Shown in pieces: positions 2,876 to 35,993 of a stretch of 54,621 nucleotides of DNA (the stretch's first letter is position 1; each line of letters begins with the position of its first letter). The DNA comes from a virus (Duplodnaviria; Heunggongvirae; Uroviricota; Caudoviricetes), in IMG/VR virus record IMGVR_UViG_3300037455_000816; one strand, given 5' to 3'. The notes under the pieces are model-generated. The model did no database searches, had not been told where the DNA came from, and saw nothing but the letters and a program-made list of their open reading frames with translations. The position numbers and the translations under genes were made by a program.

Positions 2876-3208
2876 ATGAAGAATGTAGTGAAAGATATGG
2901 AACGCTTCGCCGAGGCCGTGAACACCATCGAGGAGCTGCTGCCTAACGTCAGGGGCTATCTGGTGATGGCGATGGATAAGGAGAAGAACGGCGTACTGGC
3001 ACAGCGGATGTGGCAGTTCATCAGCTCGCAGAACGTTTCCACCCGCCTGAAGAACGTCGTGGGACTGCTGGCGACATCAGACATGACCGTCCTCGAATTT
3101 ATCGAGGCGTACCCTAAGATGAAGTTCGTGAAGTCGCGCAACTGCGGCAAAGAGACCGTGCGCGAGCTGGAACGGCTCTTCCAGAATAACCTCGTTCATT
3201 GGAAATAA
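2876..3208 (+). CDS. protein with RNA polymerase alpha-CTD-like (HhH) C-terminal domain
   Basis: VSTRLKNVV...MTVLEFI...KFVKSRNCGKETVRELERLF aligns with alpha-CTD LTVRSANCL...IGDLV...[20 protein letters not shown]. Confidence 0.65.
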   Translation: MKNVVKDMERFAEAVNTIEELLPNVRGYLVMAMDKEKNGVLAQRMWQFISSQNVSTRLKNVVGLLATSDMTVLEFIEAYPKMKFVKSRNCGKETVRELERLFQNNLVHWK

Positions 3209-7216: not shown

Positions 7217-7244
7217 CAGACAGAAACCATAATGATAAAAATAT

Positions 7245-7313
7245 CGGGTCGGCTGTACGACCTTATGGTGAGGGTACGACCACTCACTAAGATGCTTAAA
7301 GACATCACGCAGC
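7245..7313 (+). ncRNA. guide-RNA-like scaffold S1 (69 nt)
   Basis: CGGGTCG-GCTGTA-CGACC / TGGTGAG..CTCACTA / GATG..CATC / ACGCAGC; homologous to five other copies with compensatory changes. Confidence 0.8.
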
Positions 7314-7420
7314 ATACGAGGCAGTATTGTAATTTTTACGGCTAAGATGCTGAAAGTATCATGCAGCCCCAAGAGGCTATGCTTAATATGTAAGCATCAT
7401 GCAGCCACAGGAGGCCATGC
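7314..7420 (+). CRISPR. degenerate mini-array A1 (short GATGCT/AGCATC-type repeats)
   Basis: 27-nt spacer, repeats 7341-7367 and 7376-7405 ending ATGCAGC, separated by 8-nt intervals CCCAAGAG and CACAGGAG. Confidence 0.5.
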
Positions 7421-7473
7421 TTTATTTATAGAAATACAAATCGGGATCATCCCGAATGAACATAAATACAATT

Positions 7474-7542
7474 CGGGCGGGCTATACCGCCTCATGTGGA
7501 GGGTATCACCACTCCATAAGCCTTGAAAAAGGCCTATACAGC
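7474..7542 (+). ncRNA. guide-RNA-like scaffold S2 (69 nt)
   Basis: GGCGG-GCTATA-CCGCC / TGTGGAG..CTCCATA / GCCTT-GAAA-AAGGC / TATACAGC; preceded by hairpin TCGGGATCATCCCGA. Confidence 0.8.
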
Positions 7543-7793
7543 TCACGACTGTAGAAACCATCTTCTTCTGGGCTGTTAATCACCTTAATTTGAAAGGGTC
7601 ATACAGCACACAAAGGTCGGCTTTATTTCAAAAGTGCGCTGTTAATGACCTTAATCTGAAAGGATCATACAGCCAAGAGCACTTGTGAAGTACGTTGATG
7701 AAAGCTGTTAATGACCTTTAGTTGGAAGGAACATACAGCACAAGGAGAAAATGGAGGAGCCGTCAATAACCTTTTTATAAAGGCATATACAGC
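7543..7793 (+). CRISPR. CRISPR-like array A2, 36-nt type VI-B-like repeats
   Basis: Repeats 7572-7607, 7638-7673, 7704-7739 (GCTGTTAATGACCTTAATCTGAAAGGATCATACAGC consensus) and degenerate 35-nt 7759-7793; spacers 29, 30, 30, 19 nt. Confidence 0.9.
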
Positions 7794-7877
7794 TCAATCG
7801 CAAGAAGTTGAAAATACATGATGTGAATAAAGACGGCTGTTGTATTCACCTCAAATTAAACCAATTAAATATACGTT

Positions 7878-8129
7878 ATGCCAGAAAAGAAAATTTTCTT
7901 GCCCGACGCAGAAACAGCCGGGAAACTCATAGATAATGCCTGGAAGGAGTTCAACGAACAGATGAAAAAGGCTGGAATGAACTTCGAGGGTACGCAGGTG
8001 TTTGAACTTCTTCACGACATCTTTGTCGCTGGTTACTCCTTCGGTCATAATGACTGCCTGACTATCATCCGCGACCAGCTGGAGATAGATAACTGGATGC
8101 AGTACACCAAGACACTACGGAAGAACTGA
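7878..8129 (+). CDS. hypothetical protein between array loci
   Basis: 83 aa, AT-rich UTR, followed 4 nt later by next ORF. Confidence 0.7.
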   Translation: MPEKKIFLPDAETAGKLIDNAWKEFNEQMKKAGMNFEGTQVFELLHDIFVAGYSFGHNDCLTIIRDQLEIDNWMQYTKTLRKN

Positions 8130-8133
8130 CCTC

Positions 8134-8577
8134 ATGGCACAAGACGATAGCAACATCAGAGGATGGGGAAGAATCCTTGCGAATCCTGAAAGCCAAGACA
8201 GGCTTATGAGTGCCATGAAGCTGGCCGACGATATAAAACACGATCCAGAACGAGTCAGAATCCCCGACGGTATAGATATCCGGCATATCTTCTATTTCTA
8301 CGTCAAGGACAAAGAAAAAAGAGGAATGAAGGGCTGGGTGAACGGACAGGAGGTGTTTGGCGTTCTTTCAAAGAATGAAACCGCCGCACTGTTGAATGGC
8401 TTTATCACCAAGGAACAGGCGTTCATGGCCAACAAAGGCATCCATAATAAGGTACATGAGATTGCAGACAGTCTGGCATCCAACCGCCTACAGGAAGCAA
8501 AGCTTCTACAAGAGAACTACGATAGGCTGGAGAAGGAATCACAAGAACCTTCAAAAACCAGTCGATTAAAAATATAG
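8134..8577 (+). CDS. hypothetical protein between array loci
   Basis: 147 aa; stop lies 8 nt before scaffold S3. Confidence 0.7.
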   Translation: MAQDDSNIRGWGRILANPESQDRLMSAMKLADDIKHDPERVRIPDGIDIRHIFYFYVKDKEKRGMKGWVNGQEVFGVLSKNETAALLNGFITKEQAFMANKGIHNKVHEIADSLASNRLQEAKLLQENYDRLEKESQEPSKTSRLKI

Positions 8578-8585
8578 AATATCTA

Positions 8586-8654
8586 CGGGCCAGCTGATTG
8601 GCCTCATGTGGAGGGATCATCCACTCCGCAAGATGCTTTGAAGCGTCATACAGC
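8586..8654 (+). ncRNA. guide-RNA-like scaffold S3 (69 nt)
   Basis: GGCCA-GCTGAT-TGGCC / TGTGGAG..CTCCGCA / GATGCT..AGCGTC / ATACAGC. Confidence 0.8.
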
Positions 8655-8750
8655 TACGGAGTATGAGGACGAAATCAAGACTCTGGTGTTAAAGCACCAA
8701 AAATGTAAGCATCACACAGCTGAAGAGCGAGAAGGCTTAACAATACAACT
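8655..8750 (+). CRISPR. degenerate mini-array B1
   Basis: 30-nt spacer, degenerate 36-nt repeat 8685-8720 (GGTGTTAAAG...TGTAAGCATCACACAGC), then a further ~30-nt spacer. Confidence 0.55.
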
Positions 8751-8817
8751 GGTGCATATGCGCCAATACAAAGAAAGAACAAATCGGGAAACTCCCGTAT
8801 AGTAATAAAACTAATGT

Positions 8818-8886
8818 CGGGCGGGCTGTACCGCCTTATGGTGAGGGCCACGCCACTCACTAAGCCTTACAAAAGGTCAATACAGC
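8818..8886 (+). ncRNA. guide-RNA-like scaffold S4 (69 nt)
   Basis: First 31 nt identical to S5 (23933 minus); CCTT-ACAA-AAGG stem; ends AATACAGC; preceded by hairpin TCGGGAAACTCCCG. Confidence 0.85.
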
Positions 8887-9009
8887 TCAAGAAAGGTTAA
8901 TGGTTCTGCTGTTAATGGCCTTCATTTGAAAGGAACATACAGCGGTCTTAGGGGTCAGCAAGTGCCGCGCGCAGCTGTTAATGACCTTAATGTGAAAGGA
9001 TTATACAGC
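8887..9009 (+). CRISPR. CRISPR-like array B2, 36-nt type VI-B-like repeats
   Basis: Repeats 8908-8943 and 8974-9009; spacers 21 and 30 nt. Confidence 0.88.
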
Positions 9010-23301: not shown

Positions 23302-23376
23302 TGGTATCCCCACCGGGAATCGAACCCAGATCTACGGCTTAGGAGGCCATTGTTCTATCCATTGAACTATGAGGAC
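23302..23376 (-). tRNA. tRNA-Arg(CCT)
   Basis: Minus strand GTCCTCA..TGGATAGAAC..ATGGC-CTCCTAA-GCCGT..GGTTCGATTCC..TGGGGAT-A-CCA; full cloverleaf, encoded CCA. Confidence 0.95.
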
Positions 23377-23778: not shown

Positions 23779-23870
23779 ATCTAATGAAATTTAATTATTA
23801 ATCCTATATCGATGATTCACTATGTGAGTGATGTTTAGCTGTATGGAAGCAGTTATGCAGTTATGCAGCA

Positions 23871-23933
23871 GCTGTATGATTTGCACCTTGGCGAGTAGCC
23901 TCGCCCTCACCATAAGGCGGTACAGCCCGCCCG
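23871..23933 (-). ncRNA. guide-RNA-like scaffold S5 (63 nt), 9 nt after the dCas12f-like stop
   Basis: CGGGCGGGCTGTACCGCCTTATGGTGAGGGC...CTCGCCAAGGTGCAAATCATACAGC; followed 25 nt later by a second CATACAGC (23838-23845). Confidence 0.85.
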
Positions 23934-23942
23934 GTAAAAACA

Positions 23943-25199
23943 TTATGCGTCATCTTCGTCTTCGTCTTCAGAGTTACCCTTCTTTTTCTTCTTAGGCGGG
24001 TCCTGAACCTTGATATTGTACTTATCAGCCTTGTAGTGAATCTTGTCCTTCAGGGAGTAGTACGACCAGTTGCGCAGGATGGTATGCTCTCCGCGCTCGT
24101 CGGCCTCCTTGGCCAGCTTCTCGCGGCGCTCCTGGTCAACAAGGACAATCTGGCCGCACTTGTGGCTGATGGCGATATCCACCAGCTGCTTGGCATAGGT
24201 GTGGAGCTTCGTGTCAACATAGTTGATCTCCGCATCCTCGAAACGCTTGATGGCCTGCATCTTCTTCTTGCGGCCCTTGCCGCCCTTATTATAGCGGCAG
24301 TTGGTCTGGCAGCGGCGCAAAGCCTCCTGAATCTGGCGGCGGCGGTAAAGGAACTCCTCGGCGGTGCCGATCTCAAACCACTTGATGCCGCTGTCATACT
24401 CCTTGGCCGCACGGACATCGCAGGCACAGATGATGGGGTTGGCAATACCCAGACGGGCGTAGAGAACCTTATCGGGGTCAAGCTCCACCTCCTTCTTGGG
24501 GATATCCACACAGAGATAGAGGAAGATCTTCGTGACCTTCTTGTCCTTCTTCGGGTCAAACTTCTTCTCAAAGGCAAGGGATGACGTACACATCCTGTAG
24601 CCGGTGGCCTCGCCTTCCTTACCGTCGGTGGCATCGTACTTCATCTGATTGATGATACGCTCCACGATCAGGCGGTTGCCGCTACGGTCATAGCCGAAGC
24701 GCATCTGGAATGGCACTCCCACCAGTGAGAAGAAACAACCGGTGCGCTTCTCGCCCTCGCCGTTGACATACTCGGCGAAACGGAGATTCACGAAACGCTT
24801 AGTGGCGTAGGGAACGGGCAGGGATGCCTTATAAGAACGTAAGCTGCGGTCGAACATTCCACCGTTCTTACGGTCATCCTTATACATCTTCTGCACGTTC
24901 TGGATTACAGCGGAAACCATACCCATGTCAGCCTTACCCTTGAAAAGGCGGCTGGCTAAGGCATAGACCGCGTTCTGACGGCTCACCTTATTGTCCTTGG
25001 CACCGATGAAGGTAATAACCTCACGGCTGGGCTTGTCAAGGACGGCCATAAGGTGGTCGAGACTAAACTCCGAACTGGCGCAGAGGTTGGCTACCTGCCA
25101 GGCATAGTAGCGATTCTCGTACAACTTATCGTAGTACGCCTTGCGCTGTGCCTCGTCGTTTTCGGTGACGAATACCTGAATCTTTCTTGTGATAATCAT
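23943..25199 (-). CDS. nuclease-dead TnpB/Cas12f-like RNA-guided DNA-binding protein
   Basis: MIITRKIQV N-terminus, CTSSL..KIFLYLCVDIP, RuvC-I VLYARLGI (Asp->R249), bridge helix RRRQIQ..KGGKGRKKK, RuvC-II IVLVDQ (Glu->V354), LRNWSYYSL...YKA, then ends without Zn finger or RuvC-III. Confidence 0.85.
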   Translation of the reverse strand: MIITRKIQVFVTENDEAQRKAYYDKLYENRYYAWQVANLCASSEFSLDHLMAVLDKPSREVITFIGAKDNKVSRQNAVYALASRLFKGKADMGMVSAVIQNVQKMYKDDRKNGGMFDRSLRSYKASLPVPYATKRFVNLRFAEYVNGEGEKRTGCFFSLVGVPFQMRFGYDRSGNRLIVERIINQMKYDATDGKEGEATGYRMCTSSLAFEKKFDPKKDKKVTKIFLYLCVDIPKKEVELDPDKVLYARLGIANPIICACDVRAAKEYDSGIKWFEIGTAEEFLYRRRQIQEALRRCQTNCRYNKGGKGRKKKMQAIKRFEDAEINYVDTKLHTYAKQLVDIAISHKCGQIVLVDQERREKLAKEADERGEHTILRNWSYYSLKDKIHYKADKYNIKVQDPPKKKKKGNSEDEDEDDA

Positions 25200-25247
25200 A
25201 CTTGAATGGTTTTAAAATTGTTGATACTGATGTAATTTCCTGCCGGT

Positions 25248-25354
25248 GCTGTATATCCCGTCCTGACCATAATCTGCTTTGCCAAACGGAAGAAGGCAAG
25301 GGCGGGACTCTGCGAGTGGATTCCCTCTCGCATCAAGGCCGAACAGCCGACCCG
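25248..25354 (-). ncRNA. extended scaffold S6 (107 nt) in the 5' leader of the dCas12f-like gene
   Basis: GGTCG-GCTGTT-CGGCC / TGCGAG..CTCGCA / long TCCCG..CTTGCC..GGCAAAG..CGGGA stem / TATACAGC; ends 48 nt before ATG; preceded by GCGGGAA..TTCCCGC hairpin. Confidence 0.8.
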
Positions 25355-25496
25355 GTTCTGTATGTTGAAATGCTTCATCATAACTTTCGTTGTGCAAGGC
25401 GGGAAGAGCCTCACGGATGTTCCCGCTTGTGTTGTAGTAAACAACTCTTAATTTTTTTATTAATCTAAGTTCTATTTATATGAAAAAGAAAATACT

Positions 25497-34790: not shown

Positions 34791-35993
34791 ATGAGTAAGC
34801 TAAGTTATTATCTGGATTGCCGCACACAGCGTAGCGACGGCACATCCGCACTGAAATTAATGGTGAACTCCAAGGCTGGAAACATCATGGTATCAACTGG
34901 TATCTACCTCACTCCCCAGCAATGGAGTCCACAGGGTAAAATCATCGTCAAGCACCCTAATCGGGTGCAGCTCAACTCGCACATCACAAATTTATTGTGC
35001 CAGGCTGAAGACGCTCTGATGAAGGCAAGGGCAGCCAATGGCCGTGCGCTCACACGGGAGGAGATGAAGCAGGTTATCTTTCCTTTATACAAGGAAGATT
35101 ATGTCAACTACACATCCGTCCGTACCGTTTTTGAGCGAACCATTGAGGATCCGCTTCTAAAAAAGCGCACTCACGAACTGTATTCGTGTACCCTATCAAA
35201 GATAGAGTCATTCATCGGCCATAATGCCGATAAACTGCGATTCGAAGAAATCACAGTCGGATGGCTCGAAAAGTTCGACAAGTGGCTGGCTCCATCCTGC
35301 CCTTCAGCAAACGCCCGTGCCATTCACATGAGGAACTTGCGTAAGGTGTTCAACTCAGCCATTGATGATGATATCACCTCGAATTATCCTTTCAGGAAGT
35401 TCAGGATCAAAAAGGAGGCTACAAGAAAGCGCTCCTTGACAGTTGAACAGATCAGAAGTCTTATGACAATGGAATTGAAGCCCTACCAGAAGCGTTATGT
35501 AGATACATTCATACTGATGTTCTATCTGTTAGGTATCAATGCTGTTGATCTCCTAACTGCAACGCCGAATCTGGTAATCAATGGCAGACTTGACTATACA
35601 AGAAGTAAAACAAAACGCCCCTACTCTGTCAAGATAGAGCCGGAAGCACAGGAGATTATAGACAGATACAAAGGCAGAAGCCATCTGCTGAGTTTCTGTG
35701 ATAATGGCCGGAAATATAAGAATTATCTCAAACGTATGAATATATGTTTGAAAAAACTTATTCCCGGTTGTTCATCCTATTATGCACGTCACTCCTGCGC
35801 CACTATTGCGGCAGAGATCGACATTCCTCTCGATACTATTGCCAATATGCTTGGTCATACCGATACATCCCGCCGTGTTACGCTGGTCTATGTAGATTTC
35901 AACCTGGCAAAAGTTGATGAAGCGAACCGTCGGGTCATCGACTATGTTCTGGGTAAGGGTAAGTACAGGAAAAATAAGGTGAAAAGCAAATAA
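34791..35993 (+). CDS. int: tyrosine recombinase/integrase (Bacteroidota type)
   Basis: Arm domain YYLDCRTQRSDG, SAM-like core-binding region, GINAVDL, YTRSKT, YARHS, LGH, C-terminal Y (VTLVY). Confidence 0.92.
   Translation: MSKLSYYLDCRTQRSDGTSALKLMVNSKAGNIMVSTGIYLTPQQWSPQGKIIVKHPNRVQLNSHITNLLCQAEDALMKARAANGRALTREEMKQVIFPLYKEDYVNYTSVRTVFERTIEDPLLKKRTHELYSCTLSKIESFIGHNADKLRFEEITVGWLEKFDKWLAPSCPSANARAIHMRNLRKVFNSAIDDDITSNYPFRKFRIKKEATRKRSLTVEQIRSLMTMELKPYQKRYVDTFILMFYLLGINAVDLLTATPNLVINGRLDYTRSKTKRPYSVKIEPEAQEIIDRYKGRSHLLSFCDNGRKYKNYLKRMNICLKKLIPGCSSYYARHSCATIAAEIDIPLDTIANMLGHTDTSRRVTLVYVDFNLAKVDEANRRVIDYVLGKGKYRKNKVKSK

What the first reader, a model, noticed from the sequence alone, without database searches (positions are those of the whole stretch)
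23943..25199. RuvC triad destroyed and Zn-finger/RuvC-III truncated: an exapted, not decayed, Cas12f-like gene
The RuvC-I Asp is replaced by Arg249 (VLYARLGI versus the usual xGvDlGi). The RuvC-II Glu is replaced by Val354 (IVLVDQ versus IvmEdL). The ORF ends after YKADKYNIKV with a PPKKKKK-EDEDEDDA tail instead of the CxxC...CxxC/RuvC-III region. The REC/WED, bridge helix (RRRQIQ...KGGKGRKKK) and LRNWSYY motifs are intact, the frame is unbroken, and no IS200/IS605 tnpA or IS ends are evident. Inference: selected loss of cleavage with RNA-guided binding retained. The charged tail could be a partner-binding surface.
Basis: partly seen in the sequence, partly recalled or inferred. Interest (0 to 1): 0.85.

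Follow-up and report, generated by a model that had tools for sequence, protein, structure and literature searches.

The report
Dead Cas12f on a mobile element
This gene encodes a naturally nuclease-dead, shortened Cas12f protein, a family already described in 2023-2026; this copy has no sigma-factor partner, sits on a mobile element of rumen Prevotella-like bacteria with its own guide RNAs and CRISPR-like arrays, and one spacer exactly matches a rival plasmid-like element, so it probably silences genes rather than cutting DNA.

Summary
ORF 23943-25199(-) encodes a 418-aa Cas12f-like protein. R249 and V354 occupy the RuvC-I Asp and RuvC-II Glu columns. The chain stops where intact relatives continue with the zinc finger and RuvC-III motif, and it ends in a disordered K/E/D tail. 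The gene is not decaying: dN/dS is 0.02-0.13 in informative pairs of the clade, the model has pLDDT 90.7, and the best structural match is the solved nuclease-dead dCas12f (9n9c).

The family is known (Altae-Tran 2023 PNAS; Hoffmann 2026 Nature). This copy belongs to a Bacteroidales clade, sister to the sigmaE-linked one at moderate support, that lacks the sigmaE partner. No sigmaE gene lies within 10 kb in about 50 loci, against 55 Sphingobacteriia loci where it sits directly upstream. The clade is carried by prophages, viral contigs and integrative elements.

A covarying guide-RNA scaffold follows the stop codon. Five more copies lie in the window, four of them heading repeat-spacer arrays. 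Spacers turn over between near-identical elements.

Window spacer 7674-7703 matches 30/30 a TTTG-flanked site in the first gene of the partition-primase-relaxase operon of an unrelated mobilisable element. My best reading is RNA-guided, cleavage-free silencing of competing mobile elements, like Cas12m or type IV-A3.

The parts
23943..25199 (-). dCas12f-like gene, 418 aa (P0001). It is nuclease-dead and C-terminally truncated. The R249 codon is at 24453-24455 and the V354 codon at 24138-24140.
23946..24005 (-). Charged C-terminal tail, residues 399-418 (QDPPKKKKKGNSEDEDEDDA). It is predicted disordered and replaces the zinc finger and RuvC-III region.
23871..23934 (-). Guide-RNA scaffold S5. 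It starts 9 nt after the stop codon, has stems P1 and P2, and ends in ATACAGC.
23845..23870 (-). Putative guide of S5 (TGCTGCATAACTGCATAACTGCTTCC). It is identical in the element variants L163 and L164. Its target is unknown.
25248..25355 (-). Scaffold S6 in the gene's 5' leader, with a long P3 insert. It was not in the training set of the covariance model, which found it at E 7e-11.
25218..25247 (-). Guide-like 30 nt after S6. It is completely replaced in L163/L164 while both flanks are conserved.
7244..7435 (+). Scaffold S1 followed by degenerate repeat units.
7473..7793 (+). Scaffold S2 followed by an array of 36-nt repeats and 30-nt spacers (array A).
7674..7703 (+). Spacer R2b. It matches a protospacer 30/30 in four unrelated metagenome contigs. 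The site has a 5' TTTG flank and lies in the HTH_17 gene that heads a ParA-primase-relaxase operon.
8585..8720 (+). Scaffold S3 followed by one degenerate repeat unit.
8817..9009 (+). Scaffold S4 followed by array B. The spacer at 8944-8973 differs in the window, L165 and L167.

Best explanation
The gene encodes a dCas12f: a Cas12f derivative that has lost the RuvC-I Asp, the RuvC-II Glu, the zinc finger and RuvC-III, but keeps the REC/WED/RuvC fold and the lid motif.

It belongs to a Bacteroidales branch that appears as sister to the published sigmaE-coupled dCas12f. This branch has no sigma partner and is carried by prophages, viral contigs and integrative elements. Here the gene lies in the long operon that runs away from the integrase and CI-like switch of a temperate element of rumen Prevotella-like bacteria.

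Shown here:
- the fold, the substitutions and the truncation;
- purifying selection;
- a covarying scaffold RNA gene directly downstream;
- five further scaffold copies, four of them heading repeat-spacer arrays;
- spacer turnover between near-identical elements;
- one spacer that matches, 30/30 and next to a 5'-TTTG flank, the first gene of the partition/primase/relaxase operon of an unrelated mobilisable element.

Inferred. The protein, probably as a dimer as in solved Cas12f and dCas12f, loads scaffold-guide RNAs and recognises a TTTG-type motif. It forms an R-loop on the template strand and stays bound without cutting. That blocks RNA polymerase and silences replication and transfer genes of competing mobile elements. 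Some guides may also regulate the carrier element itself. The acidic tail is a flexible appendage of unknown role.
For: Identity:
- NCBIfam guided_TnpB at E 1.9e-17, with the match ending at model position 337 of 389.
- PDB sequence search: 9n9c 'Nuclease-deactivated Cas12f' at E 4.5e-39, ahead of active Cas12f at 3e-31.
- AF2 model with pLDDT 90.7; Foldseek top hits 9n9c and 9n9m at E 1e-26 to 1e-25.

Dead site: intact relatives carry D/E plus the zinc finger and RuvC-III, while about 80 truncated representatives carry variable residues at both columns.

Selection: dN/dS 0.02-0.13 in informative pairs.

Clade and context:
- All truncated proteins form one clade (SH-aLRT 100). SigmaE linkage needs only one change on the tree. 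The window falls in a 20-row clade (100) that mixes 11 viral contigs with Prevotellaceae MAGs.
- A sigmaE gene lies 2-19 nt upstream in 55 loci, nearly all Sphingobacteriia. None is found in the window or in about 50 Bacteroidales and viral loci.
- Homologs lie in a Mu-like prophage.
- The exact protein occurs on 9 contigs with the same gene order, next to integrase, HTH, primase and helicase genes.

RNA:
- The scaffold is 98.6% paired against 40-49% in slid controls, and 11 of 13 pairs show compensatory changes.
- The covariance model finds exactly 6 copies in the window, and 75 copies, all on the gene's strand, in 38 other loci.

Targeting:
- Spacer R2b matches 30/30 in L166, L168, L169 and L170, with a TTTG flank and the guide in the sense of the coding strand.
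- The target element encodes HTH_17, ParA, a DnaG-type primase, a Mob_Pre relaxase and an AbiE pair.
- A spacer of phage L093 matches phage L095 at about 27/30, with a TTTTG flank. A spacer of L098 matches its own HTH ORF 30/30.
- Spacers are replaced between elements that are 94-97% identical.

Precedent: Cas12m and type IV-A3 silence plasmids without cleavage (PMC11013384, PMC10442227, 10.1101/2023.06.23.546257). A repressor role was proposed for sigmaE-less dCas12f (PMC13472631).
Against: - Only one of about 13 window guides has an identified target.
- The guide next to the gene (S5) has no known target.
- No binding, repression or cleavage assay exists for any member of this sigmaE-less clade.
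- The strand-bias argument rests on three protospacers.
- The L098 self-target has a CTGC flank rather than TTTG.
- No adaptation genes were seen that would explain spacer turnover.
- D355 and E357 lie near the dead site, so residual chemistry cannot be excluded by sequence alone.
- The viral assignment rests on IMG/VR predictions and one Mu-like context. There were no hits in deposited phage genomes or PLSDB plasmids.
Confidence: 0.6

Rival explanations
1. RNA-guided transcription activator. Like its sigmaE-coupled cousins, the protein recruits RNA polymerase to guide-specified sites, using a host sigma factor or an unlinked adaptor. The exposed truncated RuvC face or the acidic tail would be the docking site.
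For: The neighbouring clade does exactly this (PMC13472631). The sigmaE C-terminal domain docks on the truncated RuvC domain, and the lid motif contacts sigma region 4 (10.1101/2025.06.10.658880). The lid motif, including WSYY, is conserved here. A 311-aa protein with HTH_17, weak Sigma70_r4 and RNA_pol_A_CTD hits lies 3 kb from one homolog.
Against: No sigmaE-type gene lies within 10 kb in any of about 50 loci of this clade or anywhere in the 54-kb window, although the same profile detects ordinary ECF sigma factors. All three protospacers lie inside coding sequences rather than upstream of genes. The residue equivalent to Fta F337, which contacts sigma region 4, is T373 here.
Confidence: 0.12
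2. Self-regulator of the carrier element, in the manner of TldR. The guides mainly control the element's own genes, for example the lysogeny or excision switch or host genes. The plasmid match would be incidental.
For: L098-type phages carry a spacer 30/30 identical to their own small XRE/HigA-like ORF, which only a dead effector could tolerate. The S5 guide is conserved among element variants while other guides vary. TldR is a phage-encoded precedent (PMC13418256). SigmaE-linked systems also target sites near hth genes.
Against: No window guide matches the 54-kb window beyond chance. No host protospacer was found in the Prevotella sp. P2-180 genome for its arrays. Rapid spacer turnover fits variable external targets better than fixed regulatory sites.
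Confidence: 0.15
3. RNA-guided homing or transposition module, like a CAST. The dead effector would mark insertion sites for the carrier element.
For: Some homologs lie in Mu-like prophages. A review reports V-F CASTs in Mu-like transposons (PMC11656645).
Against: No transposase, TnsC/MuB or TniQ gene lies next to the gene in the window or in the loci with precomputed Pfam. The window's element has a tyrosine integrase. The protospacer lies inside a gene of a different element, not beside an element end.
Confidence: 0.04
4. Anti-CRISPR decoy. The dead protein and the repeat-like RNAs soak up host crRNAs or host Cas proteins, protecting the element from host CRISPR immunity.
For: A review describes a phage-encoded dead Cas9 proposed to sequester crRNAs (PMC11656645), and RNA anti-CRISPRs that mimic repeats are known (PMC10651486).
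Against: The window's repeat was not found, at up to 3 mismatches, in 401 Prevotellaceae genomes searched. The arrays carry real spacers, one with a motif-flanked protospacer. The scaffolds covary and are tied to the gene in 38 loci.
Confidence: 0.04
5. Decaying remnant of a Cas12f or TnpB gene with no function.
For: The catalytic triad and the C-terminal domain are lost.
Against: dN/dS is 0.02-0.13 in informative pairs. There are hundreds of intact homologs of the same length. The predicted fold is confident. The guide RNA is conserved.
Confidence: 0.01

Closest known systems
dCas12f of the dCas12f-sigmaE RNA-guided transcription systems (Flagellimonas taeanensis; PDB 9n9c/9n9m; Hoffmann et al. 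2026, PMC13472631; Xiao et al., 10.1101/2025.06.10.658880)
   Same: Same fold and the same truncation point: both end a few residues after the '...YKAxKxxI' strand. Both have lost the RuvC-I Asp and the RuvC-II Glu (Fta has S and M; this protein has R and V). The lid motif with WSYY is conserved. A single-guide scaffold is encoded immediately downstream with the guide at its 3' end. Both are from Bacteroidota. Both sit in one well-supported clade of truncated proteins.
   Different: There is no rpoE or sigmaE-CTD gene. Identity is only about 25-37%. The scaffolds head repeat-spacer arrays with 30-nt spacers, rather than single 14-16-nt guides. The flank at the protospacer is TTTG, not 5'-G. 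The carrier is a mobile element or phage. The protein has a 20-aa charged tail. The protospacers lie inside genes of mobile elements, not upstream of susCD operons.
SigmaE-less dCas12f next to CRISPR arrays (Hoffmann 2026, Extended Data Fig. 1a,b), and the 'inactivated Cas12f with half-DR/tracrRNA fusion' intermediate of Altae-Tran et al. 2023 (PMC10691335)
   Same: The architecture matches: a dead, truncated Cas12f, putative gRNAs at the head of CRISPR arrays, and a scaffold whose 3' end equals the repeat's 3' end. A repressor role was proposed. Links to integrases, relaxases and Prevotellaceae were noted.
   Different: These were described only by bioinformatics. The published example is a Chitinophagaceae MAG with a guide match upstream of an efflux operon. 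Here the carrier is a temperate mobile element, the clade includes more than 30 viral contigs, spacers turn over, and a spacer targets a rival mobilisable element. I found no description of these points in the papers I read.
Cas12m (type V-M) and type IV-A3 CRISPR-Cas
   Same: They work alike. They are enriched on plasmids and prophages, lack a working effector nuclease, and interfere by binding DNA and blocking transcription of essential genes of competing plasmids. Type IV-A3 lacks its own adaptation genes and acquires spacers in trans (PMC11013384, PMC10442227, 10.1101/2023.06.23.546257, PMC11656645).
   Different: They are different protein lineages. Cas12m matches the model only weakly (Foldseek E about 1e-8, TMq 0.44). 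Type IV is a multi-subunit class 1 complex with DinG. Function is demonstrated for them and only inferred here.
TldR (TnpB-like nuclease-dead repressors; PMC13622181, PMC13418256)
   Same: These are small, nuclease-dead, RNA-guided repressors. Some are encoded by temperate phages. The guide is encoded 3' of the gene.
   Different: TldRs derive directly from transposon TnpB, use one omega-RNA guide and have no arrays. This protein is nested among Cas12f and uses arrays.
Active Cas12f (type V-F1; e.g. 9nzo, 8hr5, 8j12, 7c7l)
   Same: Same REC/WED/RuvC fold, with sequence E-values down to 3e-31. The flank is of the TTTR type. The unit order is repeat then spacer.
   Different: Active Cas12f keeps the D-E-D triad, the zinc finger and RuvC-III, which are 56-125 aa missing here. 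It uses a separate tracrRNA and it cleaves DNA.

Membership tests
dCas12f clade (nuclease-dead, truncated Cas12f) | Cas12f-like REC/WED/RuvC fold | tested here: met
   AF2 model with pLDDT 90.7 and pTM 0.83. Foldseek finds 9n9c at 1.5e-26 and active Cas12f structures at about 1e-18.
dCas12f clade (nuclease-dead, truncated Cas12f) | C-terminal truncation that removes the zinc finger and RuvC-III | tested here: met
   20 aa follow the last shared strand, against 56-125 aa with CxxC..CxxC and ADxNAAxNI in intact relatives. The NCBIfam match ends at model position 337 of 389.
dCas12f clade (nuclease-dead, truncated Cas12f) | Substitution of the RuvC-I Asp and the RuvC-II Glu | tested here: met
   R249 and V354 fall in the D and E columns of 26 intact relatives.
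dCas12f clade (nuclease-dead, truncated Cas12f) | Phylogenetic placement inside the truncated clade | tested here: met
   The clade of 70 truncated rows has SH-aLRT 100 and the window lies inside it (quick search, LG+G4).
dCas12f clade (nuclease-dead, truncated Cas12f) | Structured guide RNA encoded immediately downstream, with the guide at its 3' end | tested here: met
   S5 starts 9 nt after the stop codon. Covariation: 98.6% paired and 11 of 13 pairs compensatory. Covariance-model E 6e-15. Binding of the RNA by the protein was not tested.
dCas12f-sigmaE RNA-guided transcription system | Operonic rpoE gene encoding a sigmaE with a C-terminal extension | tested here: not met
   There is no sigmaE-like ORF in the 54-kb window, nor within 10 kb in about 50 loci of the clade. 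It is present 2-19 nt upstream in 55 loci, nearly all Sphingobacteriia.
dCas12f-sigmaE RNA-guided transcription system | Single gRNAs with 14-16-nt guides and a 5'-G TAM | tested here: not met
   The units have 30-nt spacers, the protospacer matches 30/30, and the flank is TTTG. The mature RNA ends were not measured.
dCas12f-sigmaE RNA-guided transcription system | Recruitment of RNA polymerase and promoter-independent initiation | not testable with these tools
   This needs ChIP-seq, in vitro transcription or reporter assays.
Type V-F CRISPR-Cas (active Cas12f) | Intact RuvC D-E-D triad and zinc finger | tested here: not met
Type V-F CRISPR-Cas (active Cas12f) | Associated CRISPR array | tested here: met
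   36-nt repeats with 30-nt spacers at 7573-7793 and 8908-9009, each headed by a scaffold.
Type V-F CRISPR-Cas (active Cas12f) | Adaptation genes (cas1, cas2, cas4) | tested here: inconclusive
   None were found among about 40 ORFs scanned or in the precomputed Pfam of the syntenic contigs. Not every ORF of the window was scanned.
TldR | Nuclease-dead relative derived directly from transposon TnpB, with a single omega-RNA | tested here: not met
   The nearest active relatives are Cas12f, not TnpB, and arrays are present. The protein may work like a TldR but is not a member by descent.
IS200/IS605 TnpB | An adjacent tnpA or IS ends, with an active triad | tested here: not met
   No tnpA was found in the neighbours. 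The gene order is fixed on 9 contigs. The triad is lost. IS ends were not searched for explicitly.
Cas12m (type V-M) | Membership of the Cas12m lineage | tested here: not met
   Only weak structural similarity (8hhm at E 1.4e-8, TMq 0.44), far behind Cas12f.

The most novel reading that the evidence does not exclude
Temperate phages and integrative elements of gut and rumen Bacteroidales carry a self-contained, cleavage-free CRISPR-interference weapon built on dCas12f. Fusions of tracrRNA and a half repeat head short arrays that renew their spacers. The effector silences replication and transfer operons of rival mobile elements, and in some phages their own regulators. On this reading the system is the free-standing ancestor-like state from which the sigmaE-coupled RNA-guided transcription systems arose. 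It would have accessory features not yet described: a conserved ~75-aa helical neighbour, or instead an acidic tail, that may occupy the truncated RuvC face where sigmaE docks in the other clade.
Probability: 0.4. Interest if true: 0.7.

Novelty: new variant of a known kind. Interest (0 to 1): 0.5.

Why it matters
What this locus adds is evidence about the uncharacterised branch that lacks sigmaE.

- The branch is largely carried by prophages, viral contigs and integrative elements.
- It keeps dynamic arrays.
- At least one spacer targets the maintenance and transfer operon of a rival element.

That would make dCas12f a third, independent case, after type IV and Cas12m, of mobile elements using binding-only CRISPR effectors against each other. 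It would also give a functional context for the evolutionary step that preceded RNA-guided transcription. In practical terms these are compact effectors of about 375-420 aa that are naturally dead, use single-guide scaffolds and have a simple TTTG-type motif.

Tried and rejected
- **Self-targets in the window:** all 16 putative guides give only chance-level matches (16 nt, up to 3 mismatches) within the 54 kb.
- **Viral contigs:** exact scans of IMG/VR with the S5 guide and with spacers R2a, R2b and R4a found nothing.
- **Databases:** the array region gave no match in PLSDB plasmids or deposited phages. The protein gave no match in deposited phages by tblastn. The window region gave no match in phages by megablast.
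- **Host targets:** the arrays of the cultured Prevotella sp. P2-180 homolog gave no convincing protospacer in its own genome. Array A against 401 Prevotellaceae genomes gave one weak, repeat-like hit, and only two candidates per genome were scored.
- **Host repeats:** the window's repeat was not found in 401 Prevotellaceae genomes at up to 3 mismatches.
- **Small neighbour:** the ~75-aa protein conserved in relatives has no homolog in the window by hmmsearch, and hhalign against both flanking ORFs was negative. It has no Pfam family.
- **Complex prediction** of a relative's dCas12f with that small protein returned no verdict (after two failed submissions). It counts neither for nor against binding.
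- **Whole genome:** none is held for this window, so the rest of the element could not be searched.
- **Alpha-CTD-like ORF at 2876-3208:** no support.
- **Pseudoknot statistic:** it supports covariation between the loop and the 3' end, but my search picked the first pairing hexamer, so it is biased. I use it only as a supporting observation.
- **Rfam:** it finds only the tRNA.
Full report
**Observation.** The ORF at 23943-25199 on the minus strand is real, unbroken and 418 aa long. It is a TnpB/Cas12-family protein. NCBIfam guided_TnpB matches at E 1.9e-17, below the curated cut-off, and the match ends at model position 337 of 389. PHROG 506 'transposase' matches at 4.8e-10. Pfam finds nothing.

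Against solved structures the best sequence match is 9n9c, 'Nuclease-deactivated Cas12f' (365 aa, E 4.5e-39). Active Cas12f enzymes follow at 3e-31 and weaker.

I aligned the protein with 118 representatives from an exhaustive HMMER search (730 hits at E<=1e-3). The 26 relatives with D and E at the two catalytic columns continue for 56-125 aa after the query's 'YNIKV', with CxxC...CxxC and an 'ADxNAAxNI' RuvC-III motif. About 80 representatives stop within 0-33 aa of that point and carry variable, non-acidic residues at both columns. The query has R249 and V354 there.

One pairwise alignment placed E357 opposite the Cas12f Glu. The deep alignment and the predicted strand 348-353 favour V354. 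Either way, two of the three carboxylates and the zinc finger are gone.

The GGKGRKKK and LRNWSYY motifs are among the most conserved columns. The last 20 residues are K/E/D-rich and have low model confidence. Short K/E-rich tails recur among truncated relatives but are not conserved in sequence.

**Not decayed.** The family is large: 870 hits in the 90%-identity collection, many at about 60% identity and 377-418 aa. Nei-Gojobori dN/dS for the pairs with unsaturated dS is 0.02-0.13 (median 0.10). For the window against its least saturated relatives it is at most 0.22. AlphaFold2 with a 77-sequence alignment gives pLDDT 90.7 and pTM 0.83. Foldseek ranks the dCas12f cryo-EM structures first (9n9c at 1.5e-26, 9n9m at 7e-25), then active Cas12f, and then Cas12k, Cas12m and TnpB far behind.

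**Which dCas12f?** The published systems pair dCas12f with an operonic sigmaE whose C-terminal domain docks on the truncated RuvC domain. They use 85-105-nt single guides encoded just downstream (PMC13472631; 10.1101/2025.06.10.658880).

I fetched 80 loci from named genomes and 78 from IMG/VR. I built a sigmaE profile from a Sphingobacterium control locus, whose upstream ORF is a Sigma70_r4 protein and whose downstream gene is a SusC-type receptor. A sigmaE-type ORF lies 2-19 nt upstream, on the same strand, in 55 loci. Nearly all of these are from Sphingobacterium, Pedobacter, Parapedobacter or Mucilaginibacter. None lies within 10 kb in the window, in the Bacteroidales MAG loci or in the related viral loci. 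The same profile also picked up ordinary ECF sigma factors.

In a tree of 93 proteins all truncated forms make one clade (SH-aLRT 100). SigmaE linkage maps to a single sub-clade. The window sits in a Bacteroidales clade without sigmaE; that clade has support of only 80, so its sister relation to the sigmaE-linked group is moderate. Inside it, a 20-row clade (support 100) interleaves 11 viral contigs with Prevotellaceae and Bacteroides MAGs (quick search, LG+G4).

Homologs lie in a Mu-like prophage, with a Mu-type portal, a protease, a DUF2586 protein and an Acb2/Tad1-like gene, and in other phage-like contexts.

The exact protein occurs on nine contigs from several rumen samples in the same gene order. 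It lies in a long operon that runs away from a tyrosine integrase (34791-35993) and a CI-like HTH gene. Also nearby are HTH_17, Toprim primase, Dam, a RecD2-like helicase, YodL, DUF7007 and ParA genes. The carrier is therefore a temperate integrative element. I saw no phage structural genes in the ORFs I scanned. Earlier notes of this scan describe conjugative-element features further along the same record, which I did not test.

**Guide RNAs.** It shares 31 identical nt with a copy at 8817-8886. Almost every unique locus of the clade has the same module right after the stop codon, followed by spacer-repeat units.

On 28 aligned copies the two 5' helices are 98.6% paired, against 40-49% in slid controls. 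Eleven of the 13 pairs show compensatory changes. A covariance model finds exactly six copies in the window: four on the plus strand at 7.2-8.9 kb, S5, and S6 in the gene's 5' leader. S6 was not in the training set and scores E 7e-11. The model finds 75 copies in 38 other loci, all on the gene's strand and usually one just upstream and one just downstream of the gene. Weaker hits occur in more distant sigmaE-less loci and in a sigmaE-linked locus.

The stem-1 loop covaries with the 3' terminus of the scaffold and repeat (GCTGTA/TACAGC, GTTGTA/TACAAC, GCTGCA/TGCAGC, GTTGCA/TGCAAC). This fits a pseudoknot, but my test of it is biased.

S2 and S4 head arrays of 36-nt repeats with 30-nt spacers, and the repeat's 3' half equals the scaffold's 3' end. 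This is the architecture that Altae-Tran et al. proposed as the intermediate between Cas12f and the sigma-linked proteins: activity lost together with RuvC-III, and a half repeat fused to the tracrRNA (PMC10691335). Hoffmann et al. drew the same architecture for sigmaE-less dCas12f.

**Targets.** Spacers turn over quickly.
- Near-identical scaffolds in L090, L091, L093 and L095 carry entirely different spacers.
- The position at window 8944-8973 holds three different spacers in the window and in two variants of the array region that are 94-97% identical.
- The 30 nt after S6 is swapped between conserved flanks in contigs L163 and L164, while the S5 guide is identical there.

No window guide matches the window itself beyond chance. 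The single metagenome scan with spacer R2b (7674-7703) found two copies of the array and four contigs with no other similarity to the window. In those four the full 30 nt match and the 5' flank is TTTG.

The site lies 166-195 nt into a 129-aa HTH_17 gene. That gene heads an operon with ParA, a DnaG-type primase and a Mob_Pre relaxase. Next to it lie an XRE repressor gene and an AbiEii/DUF6577 pair, so this is a mobilisable plasmid-like element.

Two more protospacers came from relatives. A spacer of phage L093 matches a nuclease-like gene of the related phage L095 at about 27/30, with a TTTTG flank. The first spacer of L098-type phages matches 30/30 a small XRE/HigA-like ORF of the same phage. 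In all three cases the guide has the sense of the coding strand, so it would pair with the template strand. No host protospacers were found for the arrays of the cultured Prevotella sp. P2-180.

**Mechanism.** Shown: the dead site, the retained fold, purifying selection, the cognate structured RNAs, dynamic arrays, and a motif-flanked protospacer on a rival element.

Inferred: guide-dependent R-loop formation without cleavage, which blocks transcription of the targeted operon. This is the mode demonstrated for Cas12m and type IV-A3 on plasmids (PMC11013384, PMC10442227, 10.1101/2023.06.23.546257; review PMC11656645). It was also proposed, untested, for sigmaE-less dCas12f (PMC13472631). I put this reading at about 0.6.

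The rivals are activation through an unlinked sigma factor (0.12), mainly self-regulation (0.15, and not exclusive of the main reading), CAST-like homing (0.04), an anti-CRISPR decoy (0.04) and decay (0.01).

**Comparison and novelty.** By fold, truncation, substitutions, phylogeny and guide position the protein is a member of the dCas12f clade. It fails the defining feature of the dCas12f-sigmaE system, because no rpoE is present. It is not a TldR by descent. It is not an active V-F effector.

The kind is known and the evolutionary scenario is published. The following points were not described in the papers I read:
- the predominance of carriage by mobile elements and phages in this branch;
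- spacer turnover;
- the spacer that targets a plasmid-like element;
- self-targeting in one group of phages;
- a conserved ~75-aa helical neighbour in 39 loci, which the window lacks.

The forms with long acidic tails (window, L003, L007, L016) are the ones without that neighbour. That rests on only about two independent events. A complex prediction gave no verdict.

I rate the finding as a new variant of a known kind, with moderate interest.

Noticed in passing
L098:11139-11378, L001:9398-9634 and 37 other loci (alignments A4 and A7); absent from the window: A conserved helical protein of about 75 aa, with the motif '...YMAdLlEkNe..IEiERGKL..LKQMNNrSRLlLDAAKyELK', has no Pfam family. It sits next to the dCas12f gene on the same strand in 39 sigmaE-less loci. 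The window, L003, L007 and L016 lack it and instead have long acidic C-terminal tails.
   Followed up: partly
window 25218-25247 (-) compared with L163:5361-5390 and L164:8723-8752: The 30 nt after scaffold S6, in the gene's 5' leader, is completely different in elements about 96-97% identical to the window, while both flanks are conserved. This looks like a swapped guide. The S5 guide is identical in all three.
   Followed up: partly
window 8944-8973 compared with L165 and L167: The first spacer of array B differs in three variants of the array region that are 94-97% identical. The terminal spacer and array A are conserved. No cas1 or cas2 was seen, and the repeat was not found in 401 Prevotellaceae genomes.
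   Followed up: partly
L098:11516-11545 and L098:16874-16903 (also L104 and L106): Viral contigs of this group (IMG/VR UViG 3300045988 series) carry a spacer 30/30 identical to a small XRE/HigA-like ORF of the same phage. The flank is CTGC. This is tolerated self-targeting, possibly a regulatory circuit.
   Followed up: partly
window 7244-9009 (+) compared with the gene at 23943-25199 (-): Four scaffolds with their arrays lie 15 kb from the gene on the opposite strand. They flank two ORFs of unknown family (7878-8129 and 8134-8577). In 38 other loci every scaffold is on the gene's strand and adjacent to the gene.
   Followed up: no
L121-L162 (IMG/VR contigs of about 30-380 kb): Many IMG/VR contigs, mostly large, encode full-length Cas12f-like proteins of mostly 433-565 aa. 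These form a separate clade with an intact-looking C-terminus and may be active phage-borne Cas12f.
   Followed up: no
window 23302-23376 (-): A tRNA-Arg(CCT) gene lies inside the element, two genes downstream of the dCas12f gene.
   Followed up: no
window 24081-24083 (-), residue T373: The lid residue equivalent to Fta dCas12f F337, which contacts sigma region 4 and whose mutation impairs transcription activity, is Thr in the window. It is Phe in most sigmaE-less relatives.
   Followed up: no
contig of P0009 (GCA_016648615.1), 3 kb downstream of the homolog: A 311-aa protein has HTH_17, weak Sigma70_r4 and RNA_pol_A_CTD Pfam hits. It is the only sigma- or alpha-like neighbour seen in the clade.
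   Followed up: no
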